DNA from: an uncultured Bacilli bacterium
GTDB taxonomy: Bacteria; Bacillota_I; Bacilli_A; RF39; UBA660
Reading direction: 5' to 3'
DNA length: 64,000 nt
Assembly (NCBI GenBank): GCA_934131175.1
Contig: CAKOZD010000002.1
Span: 66,403 to 130,402 of the forward strand
A program made the position numbers and the translations under genes. The notes under the pieces were generated by a model. That model saw only the letters and a list, made by a program, of their open reading frames with translations. It was not told where the DNA came from and made no database searches. This document shows, piece after piece, positions 309-20,090 of the stretch. Numbering within the stretch: the first letter of the stretch is position 1; every line of letters begins with the position of its first letter.

Positions 309-385
309 GGGCGATTAGCTCAGTTGGTTAGAGCACCTGCCTTACAAGCAGGGGGTCACAGGTTCGAGTCCTGTATCGCCCACCA
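309..385 (+). tRNA. tRNA-Val (anticodon TAC)
   Basis: Cloverleaf with GGGCGAT/ATCGCCC acceptor, TAGCTCAGTTGGTTAGAGC D-arm, anticodon loop CTTACAA, GGTTCGAGTCC T-arm, encoded CCA. Confidence 0.85.
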
Positions 386-388
386 TTT

Positions 389-464
<76 letters not shown>

Positions 465-470
465 TTTTAT

Positions 471-555
471 GGAGAGGTAGCGAAGTGGCTAAACGCGACA
501 GACTGTAAATCTGTTCTCATCGAGTTCGATGGTTCGAATCCATCTCTCTCCACCA
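471..555 (+). tRNA. tRNA-Tyr (anticodon GTA), long variable arm
   Basis: Acceptor GGAGAGG/TCTCTCC, anticodon loop CTGTAAA, long variable arm (TTCTCATCGAGTTCGATGG) typical of bacterial tRNA-Tyr, encoded CCA. Confidence 0.85.
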
Positions 556-565
556 CTTTTGAGTT

Positions 566-640
566 TGCCTCGTAGCCAAGTGGTAAGGCATCAGACTTTG
601 ACTCTGACATGCGTTAGTTCGAATCTAACCGAGGCAGCCA
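566..640 (+). tRNA. tRNA-Gln (anticodon TTG)
   Basis: U1:A72 first base pair and G73 discriminator as in bacterial tRNA-Gln. Anticodon stem-loop TCAGA-CTTTGAC-TCTGA, T-arm GGTTCGAATC, encoded CCA. Confidence 0.8.
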
Positions 641-653
641 TTTTTATTGATAT

Positions 654-729
654 GATCTGTTAGCTCAGTTGGTAGAGCATTTGACTTTTAATCAAAGGGT
701 CATGAGTTCGAATCTCATACAGGTCACCA
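654..729 (+). tRNA. tRNA-Lys (anticodon TTT)
   Basis: Acceptor GATCTGT/ACAGGTC, anticodon loop CTTTTAA, T-arm GAGTTCGAATCTC, encoded CCA. Confidence 0.85.
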
Positions 730-734
730 TTGTT

Positions 735-823
735 GCCTGAGTGGCGGAATTGGTAGACGCACAGGACTTAAAATCCTGCGAGAATCAACCCTCGTGCCGG
801 TTCAAGTCCGGCCTTAGGCACCA
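735..823 (+). tRNA. tRNA-Leu (anticodon TAA), long variable arm
   Basis: Acceptor GCCTGAG/CTTAGGC, anticodon loop CTTAAAA, long variable arm, T-arm GGTTCAAGTCC, encoded CCA. Confidence 0.85.
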
Positions 824-861
824 TTTAAAAATTTAACTCAATATTTATTTATTGAGTTTAT

Positions 862-954
862 GGAGGAATACCCAAGCCTGGTTGAAGGGACCGGTCTTGA
901 AAACCGGAAGGTCGTGCAAGCGGCGCTAGGGTTCGAATCCCTATTCCTCCGCCA
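862..954 (+). tRNA. tRNA-Ser (anticodon TGA), long variable arm
   Basis: Acceptor GGAGGAA/TTCCTCC, anticodon stem-loop CCGGT-CTTGAAA-ACCGG, long variable arm, discriminator G, encoded CCA. Confidence 0.85.
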
Positions 955-961
955 TTTATAT

Positions 962-1038
962 CGCGGGATGGAGCAGTTAGGTAGCTCGTTGGGCTCATAA
1001 CCCGAAGGTCGGAGGTTCGAATCCTTCTCCCGCAACCA
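962..1038 (+). tRNA. initiator tRNA-fMet (anticodon CAT)
   Basis: CGCGGGA...TCCCGCA acceptor with C1xA72 mismatch and three consecutive G-C pairs in the anticodon stem (GGG-CTCATAA-CCC), both hallmarks of bacterial initiator tRNA. Encoded CCA. Confidence 0.85.
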
Positions 1039-1056
1039 ATTTATTTAATTTATTAT

Positions 1057-1133
1057 GGTTCCTTGGTGCAGCTGGTTAACACGTCTGCCTGTCACGCAGA
1101 AGATCGCGGGTTCGAGTCCCGTAGGAACCGCCA
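1057..1133 (+). tRNA. tRNA-Asp (anticodon GTC)
   Basis: Acceptor GGTTCCT/AGGAACC, anticodon loop CTGTCAC, T-arm GGTTCGAGTCC, discriminator G, encoded CCA. Confidence 0.85.
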
Positions 1134-1136
1134 TAT

Positions 1137-1212
1137 GGCTTCATAGCTCAGTCGGTAGAGCAAGGGACTGAAAATCCCTGTGTCGCTGGTTCGATTCCCG
1201 CTGGAGCCACCA
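1137..1212 (+). tRNA. tRNA-Phe (anticodon GAA)
   Basis: Acceptor GGCTTCA/TGGAGCC, anticodon loop CTGAAAA, T-arm GGTTCGATTCC, encoded CCA. Confidence 0.85.
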
Positions 1213-1265
1213 TTTTAATTAAGACAACTAAATGTTATATGTGCTGTAGCTGAACAACATGTCTT

Positions 1266-1342
1266 GCGCTCGTAGCTCAGTTGGATAGAGTGTTTGGCTA
1301 CGAACCAAAAGGTCAGGGGTTCGAATCCCTTCGGGCGCACCA
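1266..1342 (+). tRNA. tRNA-Arg (anticodon ACG)
   Basis: Acceptor GCGCTCG/CGGGCGC, anticodon loop CTACGAA, T-arm GGTTCGAATCC, encoded CCA. Confidence 0.85.
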
Positions 1343-1347
1343 GTTAT

Positions 1348-1424
1348 CGGGAAGTGGCTCAACTTGGTAGAGCACTTGGTTTGGGACCAAGGGGTTGCAG
1401 GTTCAAATCCTGTCTTCCCGACCA
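1348..1424 (+). tRNA. tRNA-Pro (anticodon TGG)
   Basis: Acceptor CGGGAAG/CTTCCCG, anticodon stem-loop CTTGG-TTTGGGA-CCAAG, T-arm GGTTCAAATCC, encoded CCA. Confidence 0.85.
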
Positions 1425-12540: not shown

Positions 12541-12569
12541 TTGACAAATAAGGACTAGATGCATATAAT
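12541..12569 (+). promoter_or_regulatory. consensus sigma-70 promoter of the infC-rpmI-rplT operon
   Basis: TTGACA, 17-nt spacer, TATAAT. Confidence 0.55.
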
Positions 12570-12711
12570 ATTACTAGTCGAGAAAAAAAGGAAAGAGATT
12601 TATATCCACCTGATCAGCGAATAGCGATAGGTTAAAAGCCAAATATATAATGAAGTTTACTTTATTATGTGTCTTAGCGGATATAAATTTTATATCTGCT
12701 TTTCTTATTTT
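12570..12711 (+). ncRNA. infC-rpmI-rplT leader, probably an L20-responsive attenuator (ribosomal protein leader)
   Basis: 142-nt 5' UTR ending in GCGGATATAAATTTTATATCTGC hairpin plus TTTTCTTATTTT, placed as in the Firmicutes L20-leader. Confidence 0.4.
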
Positions 12712-13257
12712 ATGGAGGTGTTAGGTATCGCAAAGAATAATGATAACATGTTGATTAATGATCAAATCAAAGCTCGTGAAGTTCTTGTTATTGGTCCAAA
12801 TGGAGAACAAGTTGGAGTTAAACCTATTCAAGATGCTCGTACTTTAGCAAGCTACGCATCACTTGATTTAGTTTTAATTAGTCCAAATGCAAATCCACCT
12901 GTTTGTAAAGTAATGGATTATAATAAGTTCCGTTATGAAAAACAAAAGAAAGCAAAGGAAGCTTTAAAGAAACAAAAGGCTAATATGTCTGAACTTAAAG
13001 AGTATCGTTTATCACCTGTTATTGATGTTGGGGATTTTGAAACTAAACTTAGAAATGCAACAAAGTATCTAGAAAAAGGGGATAGAATAAAGCTTACTAT
13101 AAGATTCAAAGGTCGCCAAATGGCACATACTGAACTTGGTAAGGAGGTTCTTGAACGTTTTGCCGACAGAGTAAAGGATTACGCAGATATAGAACAAAAA
13201 CCTAAGTTAGATGGTAGAACAATGACTATGTTATTAGTACCAAAAAAAGACAAATAA
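12712..13257 (+). CDS. infC: translation initiation factor IF-3 (exact start uncertain, possibly non-AUG)
   Basis: INDQIKAREVLVIGPNGEQVGV...LDLVLISPNANPPVCKVMDY IF-3 N- and C-domain signatures. A GGAGGTG SD at 12714-12720 sits 6 nt before an in-frame ATC (12727). The in-frame ATG at 12712 lacks an SD. ATG 12748 is another option. Confidence 0.8.
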   Translation: MEVLGIAKNNDNMLINDQIKAREVLVIGPNGEQVGVKPIQDARTLASYASLDLVLISPNANPPVCKVMDYNKFRYEKQKKAKEALKKQKANMSELKEYRLSPVIDVGDFETKLRNATKYLEKGDRIKLTIRFKGRQMAHTELGKEVLERFADRVKDYADIEQKPKLDGRTMTMLLVPKKDK

Positions 13258-13489: not shown

Positions 13490-14065
13490 ATGGCAAGAGT
13501 TAAAAATGGAGCAGTTACAAAAGCTCGTCATAAAAAAGTATTAAAACAAGCTAAGGGTTACTTTGGAAGTAAACATAGATTATATAAAACAGCTAAAGAA
13601 CAATTAATGCATTCAGGACAATATGCATTTAGAGATAGAAAGCAAAAGAAAAGAGATTTCAGAAAGTTATGGATTACAAGAATCAATGCTGCTTGTAGAC
13701 AAAATGATATTTCTTACTCAAGATTTATTGAAGGATTAACAAAAGCAGGTGTTGAAATCAACCGTAAAATGTTATCTGAAATAGCAATCAATGATTCAAA
13801 AGCATTTACTGATTTAGTTAAAATTGCTAAAGATGGTAAAGCTGGTAAATTAACTCCAGCTACTGAAGTAGAAGGTGTTGAAGTTACTGTTGGAGGAGCT
13901 ACAAAGGCTGCTAAGAAAGAAACTAAAAAAGAAACTAAGAAGGAAGAAGCTGCAGTAGATTATTCTAAAATGACAGTTGCTGAATTAAAAGAAGTAGCTG
14001 CAGAAAAGAATATTAGTGTTGCAGGAATGAAGAAAGCTGAAATTATCGAAGCTTTATCTAAATAA
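13490..14065 (+). CDS. rplT: 50S ribosomal protein L20 with about 70-aa C-terminal extension (K/E/A linker plus Rho_N/SAP-like motif)
   Basis: Residues 1-118 ([19 protein letters not shown]...VKIAKDG) match canonical L20. [12 protein letters not shown] linker follows, then [31 protein letters not shown]. Confidence 0.85.
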
Positions 14066-14159
14066 AAATAAACATATTAGTGAATTTATTTATCTAGTGC
14101 CTAATTGGTGATAAGTTTTTGAAACTAATAGAAGAAAAATAACGAAGGAGAATTAAATT

Positions 14160-15071
14160 ATGACTGTTGTATCAATGAATTATTTATTAGAAGCAGGTGT
14201 TCAATTTGGACACCAAAAGAGAAGATGGAATCCAAAAATGAAGGAATATATCTTCACTACAAGAGATGATATTTATATTATCGATTTACAAAAAACTGTT
14301 AAGAAGTTAGAAGAAGCATATAATGCTATGAAAGAAATCGCTGCTAATGGTGGAAAAGTTTTATATGTTGGAACTAAGAAACAAGCTCAAGAAGCAGCTG
14401 AAGAATGTGCTACTAGAACTGGTATGTACTTTGTAAATGAAAGATGGTTAGGTGGAACATTAACTAACTTCAAGACAATCCGTTCAAGAATTAGAAGAAT
14501 GGAAGAAATTGAAAAAATGGAAACTGATGGTACTTTTGAAGCATTACCTAAAAAAGAAGTTATCCAAATCAAAAAAGAATATGAAAAATTAAATAAAAAC
14601 TTAAGAGGAATTCGTGAAATGAAGAGATTACCACAAGCTATGGTAATTGTTGATCCTCGTAAAGAAGATATTGCTATTAAGGAAGCAAGAATTTTAGGAA
14701 TCCCAGTATTTGGTATCGTAGATACTAACTGTGATCCAGATATGGTAGATTATGTTATTCCTGGTAATGATGATGCTGTTCGTTCAGTTAAGTTATTAAT
14801 CGGAGTACTTACTAATGCTATAGCTGAAGCTAATGGAAATGAAGTTATTGATTTTGTTTCAGAAGATGACAAAGCAAAAGCTGAAAAGAGAGCACAAAAA
14901 AAAGAAGCAGCTAAGACTTCAGAAGTAAAAGAAGAAAAAGCAGAAGAAAAAGTTACTGAAGATTTATCAGCATTAACTCTTTCAGAATTAAAAGATAGAG
15001 CAAAAGAAGCTGGAGTAAAAGGTTATTCTGCAATGAAAAAACAAGATTTAGTTGAAGCTTTAACTAAATAA
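14160..15071 (+). CDS. rpsB: 30S ribosomal protein S2 with about 60-aa C-terminal extension (K/E-rich linker plus Rho_N/SAP-like motif)
   Basis: [27 protein letters not shown] canonical S2 core. The tail ends [32 protein letters not shown]. Confidence 0.85.
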
Positions 15072-15085
15072 TAAAGTTTACTTTT

Positions 15086-15117
15086 AAAGGAGTGTTGCTT
15101 AATACTCCTTTTTTTGT
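15086..15117 (+). terminator. rho-independent terminator after rpsB
   Basis: AAAGGAGTG-TTGCTTAAT-ACTCCTTT hairpin followed by a T-run. Confidence 0.55.
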
Positions 15118-15188: not shown

Positions 15189-16076
15189 ATGTACACTGTA
15201 AGTGATGTAAAAGAATTAAGAGAAAAAACAGGTGCTGGAATGATGGATTGTAAGAAAGCACTTGAAGCATGTGAAGGTAACATGGATAAGGCAGTTGACT
15301 GGTTAAGAGAAAAAGGAATTGCTAAGGCTGCTAAGAAAGAAAGTAGAATTGCTGCTGAAGGTTTATGTAAGATTAAAGTTGATGGTAATACAGCTGTTAT
15401 GGTTGAAGTTAACTCAGAAACTGATTTCGTTGCTAAGAATGCAGAATTTACTGGATTTGTAGATTACTTATTAGATGAAATCTTAAAGAATGATGTTAAG
15501 ACTAATGAAGATGTTTTAGCAATCAAAGATGGAGATGAAACTGTAAGTGATAAATTAGTTGCTTTAACTGCTAAAATTGGAGAAAAATTAAGTTTTAGAC
15601 GTTTTGAAAAGGTAACTAAAGCAGATGATGAAACATTTGGTACTTACATCCATTTAGGTGGTAAGATTGGTACTATTATTGTTGTAAAAGGTGCTAATGA
15701 AGAAGTTGCAAAAGATGTTGCTATGCAAGCTGCAGCAATGAGTCCAGTTGCATTAACTAGAGAAGGTGTTCCAGCTGAAATGGTTGAACATGAAAGAGAA
15801 GTAGTTACTGAACAAGTTAAGAATGAAGCTGCTGGTAAGCCAGAAAATATTATTGAAAAAATGGTTAATGGTAGAATTGATAAGTTCTATAAAGAAATCG
15901 TTTTAGAAGAACAAGCATTCATTAAGGAAAACAAGTTAACAGTTTCTAAATATGTAAGTGACAATGGTGGAGAAATCAAATCTATGGTTAGATTCGCTGT
16001 TGGAGAAGGAATTGAAAAGAGACAAGAAAACTTTGCAGATGAAGTTATGAGTCAAATTAATGATGCTGCTAAATAA
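15189..16076 (+). CDS. tsf: elongation factor Ts
   Basis: MYTVSDVKELREKTGAGMMDCKKAL... UBA-like N-terminal and dimerisation core, 295 aa. SD AAGGAGG. Confidence 0.85.
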   Translation: MYTVSDVKELREKTGAGMMDCKKALEACEGNMDKAVDWLREKGIAKAAKKESRIAAEGLCKIKVDGNTAVMVEVNSETDFVAKNAEFTGFVDYLLDEILKNDVKTNEDVLAIKDGDETVSDKLVALTAKIGEKLSFRRFEKVTKADDETFGTYIHLGGKIGTIIVVKGANEEVAKDVAMQAAAMSPVALTREGVPAEMVEHEREVVTEQVKNEAAGKPENIIEKMVNGRIDKFYKEIVLEEQAFIKENKLTVSKYVSDNGGEIKSMVRFAVGEGIEKRQENFADEVMSQINDAAK

Positions 16077-16391: not shown

Positions 16392-17324
16392 ATGGCAAAA
16401 AAGAGTTCTAATAATGCAGTTAAAAAGCTTGATAAACAAATAAAAGATTTAGAAAGTTCAATAAAAGAAGAGAAGAGTGAAACTTTACCTGTTTTAGATA
16501 AGAAAAAAATAGAAGAAGAAATGAAGAAACCAGTTACTAAAAAAAGTAATAAAAAAGGTAAGTTTGAAAAGAAAGAAAATTCTAATAAACAAAAAAAGAA
16601 CAAAGAAAATAAAAAATCATCTAACATTAGAGAAGATATTATTGTAAACGATAAAAAGTATAAGAAGAAAATGAAGAATAATAGACCTATTAGGGATACT
16701 ATTGTAGCAGTTGATTCTAATAAGAAGAAAGTTGATAACACAAAGACCATTGATAAAGAAAAAATAAAAGAAAAATTAGAACTAGAAAAAGATGAAAAAG
16801 AAGATATTCAAGTAGAAGAAGGTCTTACAAGTGATGAGACAGTAAAATTAAAAAACATAGAAGAACAAATGAAGACTTTATATGATAGAGTAAATGATGT
16901 TGTAAATGATCTTGATTATGATGATTCTGGTGTTTTTGATATAGACCTTTTATCTGAAGAAATAGAAAAGAGTAATATAAATAATAATCAAAAGAAAAAG
17001 TATAAATTTAAAAATCTAAAGTTTAATAAAATAAATGAAAAGATTAGTGATATTGGTGGAGGAGCTATTAATAAAATAAGTGATATTAGTAGTGATGCTG
17101 TTAATAAGATAAGTTCTAAGTTAAATGTATCTAATGAAGTTTCTTTAAATAAAATAGGTGAGAAGATTACTGATGTTAGTAATGATACTTTTAATAAAAT
17201 AAATGAAAAAATAAATGAAGCAAACGATGATTCTTTAGGTAGAATTGCTTATTGGTTATTTTTGATTTTTATGGGATTATTTATATTATTTATAATATTT
17301 GTTATTTTCGTAAGCACTTTTTAG
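16392..17324 (+). CDS. Lys/Glu-rich coiled-coil protein with degenerate NKI(S/N) repeats and a C-terminal TM anchor (tail-anchored), occupying the position usually held by pyrH
   Basis: About 55% charged residues. Repeats ISDIGGGAINKISDISSDAVNKISSKLN..NKIGEKITDVSNDTFNKINEKINEA. C-terminal WLFLIFMGLFILFIIFVIFVSTF. Confidence 0.5.
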   Translation: MAKKSSNNAVKKLDKQIKDLESSIKEEKSETLPVLDKKKIEEEMKKPVTKKSNKKGKFEKKENSNKQKKNKENKKSSNIREDIIVNDKKYKKKMKNNRPIRDTIVAVDSNKKKVDNTKTIDKEKIKEKLELEKDEKEDIQVEEGLTSDETVKLKNIEEQMKTLYDRVNDVVNDLDYDDSGVFDIDLLSEEIEKSNINNNQKKKYKFKNLKFNKINEKISDIGGGAINKISDISSDAVNKISSKLNVSNEVSLNKIGEKITDVSNDTFNKINEKINEANDDSLGRIAYWLFLIFMGLFILFIIFVIFVSTF

Positions 17325-18774: not shown

Positions 18775-18814
18775 ATATTTACAAAAAAAATAGTATTGTG
18801 TTATAATACGTTTA

Positions 18815-19030
18815 TCGACTTTGATTAAGAAGTAGTAATATAATGATTATTTTTAGAGAGTCTGTGGTTGGTGGAAACAGATAATATAGTTATATGAATT
18901 CGTCTTAGGAGTTCTTATTAATAGTAAGCGTAATTCTTGCGTTAAGAGATTTGAGTGTGTAGTAAATAACTATGAATTAAGGTGGTACCGCGAATAGTCG
19001 TCCTTAAATTTATAGTTATTTTTTTTATTA
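18815..19030 (+). ncRNA. T-box riboswitch leader (Phe-specific candidate) upstream of pheST
   Basis: Extended -10 TGTTATAAT at 18799-18807. AGAGAG Stem I element. GAATTCG contains a TTC Phe specifier candidate. Conserved AAGGTGGTACCGCG at 18979-18992. Terminator helix plus TTTTTTTT. Confidence 0.6.
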
Positions 19031-19049: not shown

Positions 19050-20090
19050 ATGAAAATAGAAGAAGTTAAAGAGTTACTTTTAAATGATATGAAAAGTGTA
19101 ACAGACTTAAATAGTTTAAATGATTTAAAAGTAAAATATCTTGGTAAAAAGGGTTTAATTACTGAACTTAATCAAGAGATTAAAAATATTCCAAATGAGG
19201 ATAAGAAAGAATTTGGACAAAGGGTAAATGAAGTTAGAAGTAGTTTTACTGAGTTTTATGAAGAGAAAAAGAATGAGTTTGAAACAGCTATTTTAAATGA
19301 AAAATTAAAGAGTGAAGCAATTGACATTAGTTTACCTAGTTATAATATTGTAACAGGGGCTCCTAATATTCTTGAAAAACTTATTGAAGATGTTGAAGAA
19401 GTATTTATGTCTATGGGATATGATGTTGTAGATGGACCTGAGATAGAAGAAGATAAATATAACTTTGAGATGTTAAATATTCCTAAGGGACATCCTGCAA
19501 GAGATGCTCAAGATACATTCTATTTAAAAGGAGAAGAGATTCTTCTTCGTAGTCAAACTTCTCCTGTTCAAGTTAGAACAATGTTAAAAGGAAAAGGTGA
19601 AGTTCCTATTAGAATGATTTGTCCTGGTAAGACTTATAGAAGAGATGATGATGATGCAACTCATTCACATCAATTTATGCAAATAGAGGGATTACTTGTT
19701 GATAAAAATATTAGTTTAAGTGATTTAAAAGGTACTTTAGATATTATTTGTAAGAAGTTATTTGGTAATGATGTTGAGACTCGTTTCCATCCTAGTTATT
19801 ATCAATTTACTGAACCTTCAGTAGAGGTTGATATTAGTTGTTTCAATTGTAAGGGACACGGATGTAATATTTGTAAAAATAATGGTTGGATTACTGTTTG
19901 TGGAGCAGGTGTTGTTCATCCTAATGTTCTTAGAATGAGTGGATATGATCCTAAAGTATGGAGTGGATTTGCTTTTGGTTTTGGAGCTGAGAGACTTGCT
20001 ATGCTTAAATATAATATAAATGACTGTAGAGTTTTCTATAATACAGATTTAAGAGAGAGTAGAGTATTTGATAGAAAGGAGAGTGAATAG
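19050..20090 (+). CDS. pheS: phenylalanine--tRNA ligase alpha subunit
   Basis: Class II motifs (FRP.YYQFTEPS, GAGVVHPNVL, GFAFGFGAERLAM). 346 aa. Confidence 0.9.
   Translation: MKIEEVKELLLNDMKSVTDLNSLNDLKVKYLGKKGLITELNQEIKNIPNEDKKEFGQRVNEVRSSFTEFYEEKKNEFETAILNEKLKSEAIDISLPSYNIVTGAPNILEKLIEDVEEVFMSMGYDVVDGPEIEEDKYNFEMLNIPKGHPARDAQDTFYLKGEEILLRSQTSPVQVRTMLKGKGEVPIRMICPGKTYRRDDDDATHSHQFMQIEGLLVDKNISLSDLKGTLDIICKKLFGNDVETRFHPSYYQFTEPSVEVDISCFNCKGHGCNICKNNGWITVCGAGVVHPNVLRMSGYDPKVWSGFAFGFGAERLAMLKYNINDCRVFYNTDLRESRVFDRKESE

What the first reader, a model, noticed from the sequence alone, without database searches (positions are those of the whole stretch)
13490..15071. Ribosomal proteins L20 and S2 both carry matching C-terminal Rho_N/SAP-like extensions
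L20 ends ...[32 protein letters not shown]2 ends ...[32 protein letters not shown]. The two about 31-aa tails align with each other and with the N-terminal helix-hairpin of transcription termination factor Rho (LTELKNTPVSELITLGENMGLENLARMRKQDIIFAILK). Each is joined by a Lys/Glu-rich linker. A shared nucleic-acid-binding appendage on a small-subunit and a large-subunit protein is unusual and may reflect lineage-specific ribosome decoration.
Basis: seen in the sequence. Interest (0 to 1): 0.55.

Follow-up and report, generated by a model that had tools for sequence, protein, structure and literature searches.

The report
SAP-domain tails on ribosomal proteins L20 and S2
Two ribosomal proteins of an uncultured gut bacterium, one from each subunit, end in the same small DNA/RNA-binding-type domain on a floppy tether; the feature is real and conserved, is copied between the two adjacent genes, recurs in another phylum, and was not found described in the papers searched.

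Summary
rplT (13490..14065, 191 aa) and rpsB (14160..15071, 303 aa) are intact ORFs. Each has a canonical core, a roughly 40-aa Lys/Glu-rich linker and a 35-36-aa C-terminal module. The modules pass Pfam's Rho_N/SAP cut-offs, match the Ku70 SAP and Rho N-termini in the PDB, and model as helix-loop-helix.

They are not artefacts. Near-identical proteins occur on hundreds of independent contigs, and the architecture is conserved across uncultured gut Bacilli MAGs. The tails are conserved and gap-free, while the linkers vary in length and sequence.

New findings:
- In several genomes the two tails are 93-98% identical in DNA over the tail alone, which indicates recurrent gene conversion between the adjacent genes.
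- A 61-66% identical tail ends bL21 in cultured Flavobacteriaceae, and one bS1.
- Of 80 metagenome loci nearest the tail profile, 69 encode bL20, bL21 or uS2.

Function is inferred, not shown. The most likely reading is an interchangeable, flexibly tethered nucleic-acid-binding module on the ribosome surface. No solved ribosome structure and no paper searched covers it.

Verdict: a real, moderately interesting new variant of ribosomal-protein extension. A covarying RNA leader upstream of rpsB was also found.

The parts
13490..14065 (+). rplT, ribosomal protein bL20 with a C-terminal extension (191 aa plus stop)
   Evidence: ORF. Pfam Ribosomal_L20 E=7.5e-48. A Shine-Dalgarno sequence AAGGAGG lies upstream.
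13490..13840 (+). bL20 canonical core (aa 1-117)
   Evidence: Aligns to solved bL20 chains over residues 1-118 only. AlphaFold pLDDT is mostly 77-93.
13841..13957 (+). bL20 linker (aa 118-156): a semi-conserved DGKAGK..ATEV.G.EVT segment followed by a variable K/E-rich tether
   Evidence: pLDDT is below 50 for residues 118-155. Column identity among 50 orthologs is 0.21-0.47, with indels.
13958..14062 (+). bL20 SAP/Rho_N tail (aa 157-191), subtype A, with a loop one residue shorter
   Evidence: Pfam SAP 28.8 bits and Rho_N 27.7 bits. Helices at 163-172 and 182-190. Conserved without gaps.
14066..14159 (+). rplT-rpsB intergenic region holding a conserved structured RNA (stems within 14075..14130) and the rpsB Shine-Dalgarno; candidate rpsB leader. 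It is context for the finding, not part of the tails.
   Evidence: Conserved in about 37 related loci. 99.3% of cells are paired and 11 of 17 pairs show compensatory changes, against low shuffled and slid controls. No Rfam match at E<=1. No terminator-like site between rplT and rpsB.
14160..15071 (+). rpsB, ribosomal protein uS2 with a C-terminal extension (303 aa plus stop)
   Evidence: ORF. Pfam Ribosomal_S2 E=4.1e-100. A terminator-like hairpin lies at 15086..15111.
14160..14840 (+). uS2 canonical core (aa 1-227)
   Evidence: Pfam covers residues 9-223. Aligns to solved uS2 chains.
14841..14960 (+). uS2 K/E-rich acidic linker (aa 228-267)
   Evidence: 10 K/R and 13 D/E, pI 4.97. Ortholog column identity is 0.35-0.62 (0.35-0.49 beyond residue 240), with indels. 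The 27 full-length uS2 orthologs from the related genome loci vary in length from 303 to 353 aa.
14961..15068 (+). uS2 SAP/Rho_N tail (aa 268-303), subtype B (..[10 protein letters not shown]..)
   Evidence: Pfam Rho_N 38.0 bits. AlphaFold model of the tail has mean pLDDT 79.7 with helices at 20-30 and 40-48. Best Foldseek matches are the Rho N-terminal domain and the FAN1 SAP.
12541..12713 (+). Consensus sigma-70 promoter (12541..12569) followed by an L20-leader-like element with an attenuator hairpin (12587..12713; hairpin 12676..12700) upstream of infC-rpmI-rplT. It is context for the finding.
   Evidence: The promoter matches 12 of 12 consensus positions and the region has a terminator-like hairpin. 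Rfam L20_leader scores 32.5 bits, E=0.0013, below the gathering score of 58.7.

Best explanation
SHOWN. bL20 and uS2 of this organism each consist of a canonical ribosomal core, an intrinsically disordered Lys/Glu-rich tether of about 40 aa, and a C-terminal 35-36-aa helix-extended-helix domain of the SAP/Rho_N family.
- The architecture is genuine and under purifying selection.
- It is conserved across a clade of small-genome, AT-rich, uncultured gut Bacilli.
- The two tail-coding segments lie about 1 kb apart in adjacent genes, and gene conversion confined to the tail has repeatedly homogenised them.
- The same tail subtype ends bL21 in Flavobacteriaceae and at least one bS1.

INFERRED. The tails are interchangeable modules that bind nucleic acid with low sequence specificity. 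They are 'fly-cast' on flexible tethers from two solvent-exposed sites: the uS2/bS1 site next to the mRNA exit on the 30S, and the bL20/bL21 site on the body of the 50S. This would raise the ribosome's local affinity for RNA (mRNA or nascent transcripts, possibly rRNA) or for AT-rich DNA of the nucleoid. On this reading the tails do not dock as fixed structural elements.
For: Domain identity:
- Pfam matches above the cut-offs.
- PDB sequence matches to Ku70 SAP (E=1.5e-4), M. tuberculosis Rho (2.8e-4) and Tho1 SAP.
- AlphaFold gives a helix-loop-helix at pLDDT about 80-90.
- The best structural matches are the E. coli Rho N-terminal domain (1a8v, rmsd 0.9 A over 36 aa, probability 0.95) and the FAN1 SAP.

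Flexible tether:
- Linker pLDDT is below 50.
- Linkers vary in length and sequence (L20 171-207 aa, S2 303-353 aa), while the tails are gap-free and conserved.

Real and selected:
- Near-identical proteins occur on hundreds of contigs.
- The tail is present in 73 of 80 bL20 loci, and in all 37 adjacent complete uS2 genes.
- Median dN/dS in the tails is 0.26-0.52.

Interchangeability:
- Within-genome identity between the L20 and S2 tails is bimodal, at 0.42-0.53 or 0.75-1.0.
- Sharp-edged tracts of about 108 nt are 98% (L036), 96% (L010) and 93% (L016) identical in DNA, while the linkers and 3' flanks are unrelated.
- In L003 the S2 tail's nearest relatives are L20 tails.
- A module that works on either subunit argues against a site-specific docking contact.

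Recurrence on the ribosome:
- bL21 carries the tail in cultured Flavobacteriaceae. It is 61-66% identical to the window tails, which is more than they are to each other.
- One bS1 carries the tail.
- 69 of the 80 nearest metagenomic loci encode bL20, bL21 or uS2.

Nucleic-acid binding of the family:
- The isolated 40-aa C-terminal Rho-N motif of Arabidopsis RHON1 binds 16S/23S rRNA fragments and mRNAs in gel shifts (PMC3458557).
- From my own knowledge, SAP domains of Ku70, SAF-A and Tho1 bind DNA or RNA.

Analogy:
- Relatives whose bL20 lacks the SAP domain instead carry a long basic AKKT-rich tail.
Against: - No binding, localisation or structural data exist for these proteins.
- The tails have a net charge of about 0 to +1, and the S2 linker is acidic. 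Strong electrostatic nucleic-acid binding is therefore not obvious.
- In Rho the N-terminal helical subdomain is not the main RNA-contacting element (my own knowledge).
- The occurrence on two pairs of neighbouring proteins (uS2/bS1 and bL20/bL21; the neighbour relations are from my own knowledge, and S2-S1 is echoed by PDB 4toi) could mean that position matters. That would fit a specific partner or docking site.
- The full proteome of this organism could not be scanned.
Confidence: 0.5

Rival explanations
1. The SAP domains are fixed structural additions. Each docks at a specific nearby rRNA or ribosomal-protein surface, as resolved ribosomal-protein extensions do in other bacteria, and stabilises the ribosome of a reduced, AT-rich genome.
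For: - Lineage-specific extensions that fold onto the ribosome are known: bS6, uL22 and uL29 in M. pneumoniae (PMC9534751) and the bS6 helix in Bacteroidetes (PMC7797042).
- The RHON1 Rho-N domain binds rRNA fragments.
- The tails occur on neighbouring protein pairs, which suggests that position matters.
Against: - The tethers are long (about 20-100 aa), variable in length and predicted disordered. That is unnecessary for docking next to the anchor.
- The tails have been exchanged between a 30S and a 50S protein several times. Different docking sites would be expected to drive divergence, not tolerate homogenisation.
Confidence: 0.2
2. The tails are protein-protein interaction modules. They recruit a shared partner to the ribosome (an RNase, a helicase, RNA polymerase or Nus factors) or mediate ribosome-ribosome contacts in polysomes or hibernating dimers.
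For: - The same module ends a NusB-NUDIX protein and occurs N-terminally in Rho, both part of the transcription machinery.
- The RHON1 Rho-N protein works in a complex with RNase E.
- Identical modules on both subunits would suit a bivalent partner.
Against: - No candidate partner was identified.
- The family's documented activity is nucleic-acid binding.
- The window neighbourhood holds no co-conserved unknown gene carrying the motif.
Confidence: 0.13
3. The tails serve the extraribosomal, autoregulatory role of these proteins. Free bL20 and uS2 repress their own operons by binding mRNA leaders, and the added RNA-binding module strengthens that binding.
For: - An L20-leader-like attenuator precedes infC.
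- A strongly covarying structured RNA lies immediately upstream of rpsB.
- From my own knowledge, bL20, uS2 and bS1 are classical autoregulators, and an L21 leader is described in Firmicutes.
Against: - The leaders differ in sequence and structure, while the tails are interchangeable.
- Canonical bL20 and uS2 autoregulate without such tails.
- The Flavobacteriaceae bL21 tail is nearly the same module in an unrelated regulatory context.
Confidence: 0.1
4. The extensions are artefacts: frameshifts, read-through of a true stop codon, or misassembly.
For: - Some database entries carrying the tail are clearly chimeric or fragmentary. Examples are P0001, P0145 and P0146.
- In one locus (L030) the L20 tail is out of frame.
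Against: - Both are single uninterrupted ORFs.
- Near-identical proteins are seen on hundreds of independent contigs.
- The architecture is conserved in more than 70 species-level genomes.
- The tails show domain-level conservation and pass Pfam cut-offs.
Confidence: 0.01

Closest known systems
N-terminal helical subdomain of transcription termination factor Rho (Pfam Rho_N, PF07498)
   Same: - Same sequence family, with scores above the gathering threshold.
- Same predicted fold, 0.9 A rmsd to 1a8v over 36 residues.
- Same conserved M-K/R-K motif at the start of the last helix.
   Different: - The module is at the extreme C-terminus of ribosomal proteins, behind a disordered tether.
- No Rho OB-fold RNA-binding domain and no ATPase domain follow it.
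- It is a domain relative, not a Rho factor.
C-terminal SAP domain of Ku70 (also Tho1, SAF-A, FAN1 SAP)
   Same: - It is the best PDB sequence match: 1jjr at 1.1e-13 for a chain with two tandem copies (about 5e-5 per copy), and full-length Ku70 at 1.5e-4.
- As in Ku70, a roughly 35-aa SAP domain ends the protein and hangs on a flexible linker from a large nucleic-acid-binding machine.
   Different: - The core is a bacterial ribosomal protein, not a DNA-end-binding ring.
- The ligand here is unknown.
RHON1 of Arabidopsis chloroplasts (C-terminal Rho-N motif)
   Same: - It has a C-terminal Rho-N domain preceded by a charged low-complexity stretch.
- The isolated 40-aa motif binds 16S and 23S rRNA fragments and mRNAs (PMC3458557).
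- It is the only experimentally tested C-terminal Rho_N module found here.
   Different: - RHON1 is an RNase E cofactor, not a ribosomal protein.
- It is a eukaryotic, plastid-targeted protein.
bL21 with a C-terminal Rho_N tail in Flavobacteriaceae (Leeuwenhoekiella, Mesonia, Salegentibacter, Christiangramia, Psychroflexus and others)
   Same: - Same architecture: core, K/E/A-rich linker, and a tail at the extreme C-terminus.
- The tail is 61-66% identical to the window tails.
- From my own knowledge, bL21 is the direct neighbour of bL20 on the 50S.
   Different: - It is in a different phylum and on a different ribosomal protein.
- These proteins are annotated only as '50S ribosomal protein L21'.
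- No study of the tail was found.
- The solved F. johnsoniae bL21 (7JIL, 147 aa) has an extension but no SAP match.
Lineage-specific ribosomal-protein extensions (for example M. pneumoniae, 11 of 52 proteins; Xue et al. 2022, PMC9534751)
   Same: - These are C-terminal additions of more than 20 aa to ribosomal proteins in a genome-reduced Bacilli/Mollicutes-like lineage.
- They are largely disordered and their function is 'largely elusive'.
- M. pneumoniae uS2 is also extended, at 294 aa.
   Different: - Here the extension ends in a recognisable folded domain of a nucleic-acid-binding family.
- It is shared by proteins of both subunits.
- It evolves in concert by gene conversion.

Membership tests
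SAP / Rho_N / HeH helix-extended-helix domain superfamily | Sequence match to the family profile above the curated threshold | tested here: met
   L20 tail: SAP 28.8 bits (cut-off 23.9) and Rho_N 27.7 bits (cut-off 24.9). S2 tail: Rho_N 38.0 bits (cut-off 24.9). All.
SAP / Rho_N / HeH helix-extended-helix domain superfamily | Two helices separated by an extended loop, with a conserved Gly and basic residues at the start of helix 2 | tested here: met
   This rests on predicted structure only. Helices lie at residues 20-30 and 40-48 of the tail model, pLDDT about 90. Foldseek gives 0.8-1.0 A rmsd over 36 aa to the Rho N-terminal domain and the FAN1 SAP. The M-K-K motif is invariant.
SAP / Rho_N / HeH helix-extended-helix domain superfamily | Binds DNA and/or RNA | not testable with these tools
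   Only precedent is available: the RHON1 Rho-N motif binds rRNA fragments and mRNAs.
Transcription termination factor Rho | Rho_N is followed by the OB-fold Rho RNA-binding domain (PF07497) | tested here: not met
   No such Pfam match at E<=1 in either protein. The tail is the last element before the stop codon.
Transcription termination factor Rho | RecA-type hexameric ATPase domain | tested here: not met
   No ATPase domain was found. The proteins are 191 and 303 aa, with L20 and S2 cores.
Ribosomal protein bL20 | Full-length match to Ribosomal_L20 and to bL20 chains of solved ribosomes | tested here: met
   PF00453 at E=7.5e-48 covers profile positions 1-107 of 107. The best PDB hit is S. 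aureus bL20 at E=9.5e-51. The gene order infC-rpmI-rplT is as expected.
Ribosomal protein uS2 | Full-length match to Ribosomal_S2 and to uS2 chains of solved ribosomes; followed by tsf | tested here: met
   PF00318 at E=4.1e-100. The best PDB hit is B. subtilis uS2 at E=2.1e-101. tsf lies downstream at 15189..16076.
Lineage-specific ribosomal-protein extensions (sense of Xue et al. 2022) | More than 20 residues beyond the C-terminus of the E. coli ortholog | tested here: met
   There are about 74 extra residues in bL20 and about 70 in uS2, relative to the regions that align to solved chains.
Lineage-specific ribosomal-protein extensions (sense of Xue et al. 2022) | Physically present on the mature ribosome | not testable with these tools
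   No structure or proteomics is available for this uncultured lineage. No solved bL20 or uS2 chain aligns to the tail residues.

The most novel reading that the evidence does not exclude
A single SAP/Rho_N module subtype is a cross-phylum, ribosome-dedicated appendage. It has been recruited repeatedly to two surface hot spots: uS2/bS1 beside the mRNA exit, and bL20/bL21 on the 50S body. It spreads between ribosomal-protein genes by gene conversion and possibly by horizontal transfer. It gives these ribosomes a tethered nucleic-acid-capturing function, for example holding mRNA, nascent transcripts or AT-rich nucleoid DNA at the translating ribosome. This function would be absent from model ribosomes.
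Probability: 0.3. Interest if true: 0.7.

Novelty: new variant of a known kind. Interest (0 to 1): 0.52.

Why it matters
Ribosomal-protein extensions are widespread, but most are disordered and their function is unknown. Here the extension ends in a recognisable folded domain of a DNA/RNA-binding family.
- The domain is present on both subunits.
- It is kept similar or identical by gene conversion.
- It recurs on neighbouring ribosomal proteins in an unrelated phylum that has cultured members.

This gives a concrete and testable case of ribosome specialisation. Cultured Flavobacteriaceae with bL21-SAP allow tail deletion, binding assays and cryo-EM. If the tails capture mRNA or DNA, they would be a new way in which bacteria connect ribosomes to transcripts or to the nucleoid.

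The work also yields two practical by-products. One is a clean natural example of domain-restricted gene conversion between two essential genes. The other is a candidate rpsB leader RNA.

Tried and rejected
- Frameshift or misassembly artefact. Rejected because of uninterrupted ORFs, hundreds of independent contigs and conservation across species.
- 'Other proteins in the proteome end in this motif'. Only the 64-kb window could be scanned, and only L20 and S2 carry it there. In the roughly 12-kb neighbourhoods of 80 related genomes only L20 and S2 ORFs hit. A whole genome of this lineage could not be fetched.
- The exhaustive profile search (3721 hits at E<=0.001) was less informative than hoped. 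The top 150 are dominated by multi-copy Rho_N repeat proteins and by short, fragmentary or chimeric gene calls. These cannot be taken as real fusions. Examples are P0145 (S2 N-terminus joined to the L20 tail), P0146, P0199 and P0227.
- P0001, a 293-aa 'L20', is an assembly duplication.
- The dN/dS estimate for the tails (0.26-0.52) is only weakly informative in this AT-rich, partly saturated data set. The argument relies instead on the contrast between core, linker and tail conservation.
- Five literature searches found no description of SAP/Rho_N tails on bacterial ribosomal proteins. The library covers open-access papers only, so absence is not proof.
- The NCBI taxonomy look-up did not place the lineage. 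The 'RF39/RFN20-like' label is my own recollection and was not tested.
- The solved F. johnsoniae ribosome was considered as a source of density for a bL21 tail. Its bL21 has an extension but no SAP match, and the paper does not discuss it.
Full report
**1. Observation**

The window encodes infC, rpmI, rplT, rpsB and tsf on the + strand. rplT (13490..14065) gives a 191-aa protein and rpsB (14160..15071) a 303-aa protein.

Pfam finds complete L20 (residues 3-109) and S2 (residues 9-223) domains. At the extreme C-termini it finds the following:
- L20: SAP at 28.8 bits and Rho_N at 27.7 bits.
- S2: Rho_N at 38.0 bits.
- All three exceed the curated cut-offs of 23.9 and 24.9 bits.

The two tails share 15 of 35 residues. 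A profile built from them hits nothing else among 362 ORFs of the window.

The segments between core and tail are Lys/Glu-rich. L20 residues 118-156 have 8 K/R and 7 D/E. S2 residues 228-267 have 10 K/R and 13 D/E.

Solved bacterial bL20 chains are 112-129 aa and align only to residues 1-118. No solved uS2 chain reaches residues 268-303.

**2. Not an artefact**

- Both genes are uninterrupted ORFs with good Shine-Dalgarno sequences.
- Protein clusters 95-100% identical to the window proteins, all with the tail, are recorded on many independent contigs. Examples are 468, 160 and 78 contigs for S2, and 159 contigs for an L20 cluster at 98% identity.
- A scan of one genome per species returned 80 loci from uncultured MAGs, mostly labelled Bacilli, with some labelled Tenericutes, Erysipelotrichaceae, Clostridia or 'Clostridium sp. 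CAG:433'.
- 73 of the 80 L20 ORFs carry the tail.
- rpsB follows rplT directly in 38 of the 80 loci. All 37 complete ones carry the tail; the other is cut by the contig end.
- That scan used tail-containing patterns, so the proportions are biased upward.

**3. Anatomy and selection**

Across orthologs the pairwise column identity is as follows:

| Region | Column identity | Indels |
|---|---|---|
| Cores | mostly 0.7-0.99 | none |
| Linkers | 0.2-0.6 | frequent |
| Tails | about 0.45-0.70 | essentially none |

- Lengths of the orthologs from the related genome loci vary from 171 to 207 aa for L20 and from 303 to 353 aa for full-length S2.
- Median dN/dS within the tails is 0.26-0.52. This is a weak measure in such AT-rich sequence.
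- AlphaFold2 on full-length L20 gives a confident core, pLDDT below 50 for residues 118-155, and two helices in the tail.
- The S2 tail modelled alone has mean pLDDT 79.7, and about 90 over the helix-loop-helix.
- Foldseek's best matches are the E. coli Rho N-terminal domain (1a8v; rmsd 0.9 A over 36 residues, 28% identity, probability 0.95) and the FAN1 SAP domain. E-values are poor, as expected for a 36-residue domain.
- By sequence the tail profile matches Ku70's SAP domain (E=1.5e-4), M. tuberculosis Rho (2.8e-4) and Tho1 SAP. It matches no ribosomal chain.

The tails are therefore folded SAP/Rho_N helix-extended-helix domains on disordered tethers.

**4. Concerted evolution (new)**

Two tail subtypes exist. 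Subtype A (..[13 protein letters not shown]..) has a loop one residue shorter. Subtype B reads ..GVKGYSTMKKAELV...

In the window, L20 has subtype A and S2 has subtype B. They are 42% identical in protein and 63% in DNA. Across 34 genomes with both tails, within-genome identity is bimodal, at 0.42-0.53 or 0.75-1.0.

- In L036, L010 and L016 the two tails are 98%, 96% and 93% identical in DNA over about 108 nt.
- The identity starts abruptly at the first codon of the domain and ends at the stop codon.
- The linkers and 3' flanks are unrelated.
- In L003, a close relative of the window organism, the S2 tail is subtype A. Its nearest neighbours are L20 tails.

This is the signature of repeated gene conversion, confined to the domain, between the 3' ends of two adjacent genes. 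It also shows that the module works equally well on a 30S and on a 50S protein.

Some relatives have lost the SAP domain from L20 and carry a long basic AKKT-rich tail instead, while their S2 keeps the SAP. In L030 the L20 tail is out of frame.

**5. Recurrence elsewhere (new)**

An exhaustive profile search found 3721 proteins at E<=0.001. The top 150 include many multi-copy Rho_N proteins and fragmentary or chimeric gene calls.

One fragment led to bL21. A search with it showed bL21 proteins of 148-172 aa (canonical length about 103) that carry Pfam L21 plus Rho_N. They occur in many cultured Flavobacteriaceae, including Leeuwenhoekiella, Mesonia, Salegentibacter, Christiangramia, Zunongwangia, Psychroflexus and Salinimicrobium. 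All are annotated simply as L21.

- The architecture is the same: core, K/E/A-rich linker, and a tail at the extreme C-terminus.
- The tail is 23/35 and 22/36 identical to the window's L20 and S2 tails. That is more than the two window tails are to each other.

A metagenome scan with the tail profile returned 80 loci:

| Carrier | Loci |
|---|---|
| bL20 | 27 |
| bL21 | 25 |
| uS2 | 17 |
| Genuine Rho (N-terminal module) | 4 |
| bS1 with four S1 domains plus the tail | 1 |
| NusB-NUDIX-SAP | 1 |
| HMG-box protein | 1 |
| Others (two 42-aa stand-alone proteins, L148 and L151; L149; L159) | 4 |

Tailed uS2 also occurs without an adjacent rplT, and tailed bL20 also occurs without rpsB downstream.

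From established structural knowledge, bS1 docks on uS2 (compare the S2-S1 chimera 4toi) and bL21 is the neighbour of bL20. The module therefore recurs at two surface sites of the ribosome.

**6. Mechanism**

Shown: the domain family, the tether, conservation, interchangeability, and the association with ribosomal proteins.

Inferred: the tails bind nucleic acid. The only direct precedent for a C-terminal Rho_N motif is Arabidopsis RHON1. Its isolated 40-aa motif binds 16S and 23S rRNA fragments and mRNAs (PMC3458557). SAP domains in general bind DNA or RNA (my own knowledge).

Long, variable, disordered tethers and exchange between subunits favour a mobile, low-specificity capture module over a fixed structural contact. 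Likely ligands are listed here in decreasing order of my preference:
- mRNA or nascent transcripts; uS2 and bS1 flank the mRNA exit.
- rRNA.
- AT-rich nucleoid DNA; the window is 22-37% G+C.

The rivals are a docked structural element, a protein-recruitment module, or a booster of the autoregulatory mRNA binding of free L20 and S2. None is excluded. The near-neutral charge of the tails and the acidic S2 linker counsel caution.

**7. Comparison with the known**

The tails belong to the SAP/Rho_N domain family, since the sequence and fold criteria are met. They are not Rho, because they have no OB-fold and no ATPase domain.

The closest architectural analogue is Ku70's linker-tethered C-terminal SAP. 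The closest functional precedent is RHON1. The closest biological context is the catalogue of lineage-specific ribosomal-protein extensions. M. pneumoniae has them in 11 of 52 proteins, mostly disordered and with function 'largely elusive' (PMC9534751).

No paper in the searchable library describes SAP/Rho_N tails on bL20, uS2, bL21 or bS1. No solved bL20 or uS2 chain contains one, and the tail profile matches no ribosomal chain in the PDB. The fusions are visible in precomputed Pfam annotations, so the architecture is in databases but apparently unremarked.

**8. Context noticed**

- A perfect sigma-70 consensus promoter lies at 12541..12569.
- It is followed by an L20-leader-like attenuator (Rfam 32.5 bits, below the gathering score; hairpin 12676..12700).
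- There is no terminator between rplT and rpsB.
- A terminator-like hairpin lies after rpsB at 15086..15111.
- Together these suggest a single infC-rpmI-rplT-rpsB transcript.
- The rplT-rpsB spacer holds a conserved three-stem RNA (14075..14130). 99.3% of cells are paired and 11 of 17 pairs covary, far above the shuffled and slid controls. It has no Rfam match. It is a candidate rpsB leader.

**9. Verdict**

It is a new variant of a known kind: a ribosomal-protein extension that ends in a folded SAP/Rho_N domain. It is shared by both subunits, homogenised by gene conversion, and recurrent across phyla. Its function is unproven. Interest is moderate at 0.52. It would be higher if nucleic-acid capture at the ribosome were demonstrated.

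Noticed in passing
window 14066..14159 (stems within 14075..14130): A conserved structured RNA lies in the rplT-rpsB spacer, just upstream of the rpsB Shine-Dalgarno. It has three nested stems. 99.3% of cells are paired and 11 of 17 pairs show compensatory changes across 26 genomes, with low shuffled and slid controls. It has no Rfam match at E<=1. It is a candidate uS2 autoregulatory leader.
   Followed up: yes
window 12541..12713: A perfect TTGACA-17-TATAAT promoter is followed by an L20-leader-like element (RF00558, 32.5 bits, below the gathering score of 58.7) with a terminator-like hairpin at 12676..12700. The listed infC ORF start at 12667 therefore probably lies upstream of the true start. 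There is no terminator between rplT and rpsB.
   Followed up: partly
P0395-P0509 (Flavobacteriaceae); loci L094, L101, L107, L113 and others: bL21 of many cultured Flavobacteriaceae is 148-172 aa and ends in the same linker plus Rho_N tail. That tail is 61-66% identical to the window tails. The proteins are annotated only as L21. The solved F. johnsoniae bL21 (7JIL_R, 147 aa) is extended but lacks the SAP match.
   Followed up: partly
L141 (metagenome Ga0209308_10035489) and L092 (Ga0115568_10017986): A bS1 with four S1 domains ends in the same tail. So does a NusB-NUDIX fusion protein.
   Followed up: partly
L046, L048, L058, L068, L076, L077; L030: Some relatives have a bL20 extension that lacks the SAP domain and is a long basic AKKT/KKE-rich low-complexity tail. 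Where rpsB is adjacent (L046, L048, L068), it keeps the SAP. In L030 the L20 tail is still encoded, but out of frame or after a stop codon.
   Followed up: partly
P0001, P0145, P0146, P0199, P0227 (database proteins): Several database proteins that carry the tail are duplicated or chimeric gene calls. Examples are the S2 N-terminus joined to the L20 linker and tail, and a protein with a PheT-like N-terminus (my reading of the sequence, not tested) joined to L20 residues 125 onward. They probably come from assembly errors at the repeated tail sequence and should not be read as new fusions.
   Followed up: partly
window 16392..17324: A 310-aa Lys/Asn/Glu-rich ORF with a hydrophobic C-terminal segment lies between tsf and frr. 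In many bacteria pyrH lies at that position. It was not characterised.
   Followed up: no
window 309..1424 and 18812..19008: There is a cluster of 12 tRNA genes at the start of the window, and a T-box leader (118.9 bits) upstream of the ORF at 19050..20090.
   Followed up: no
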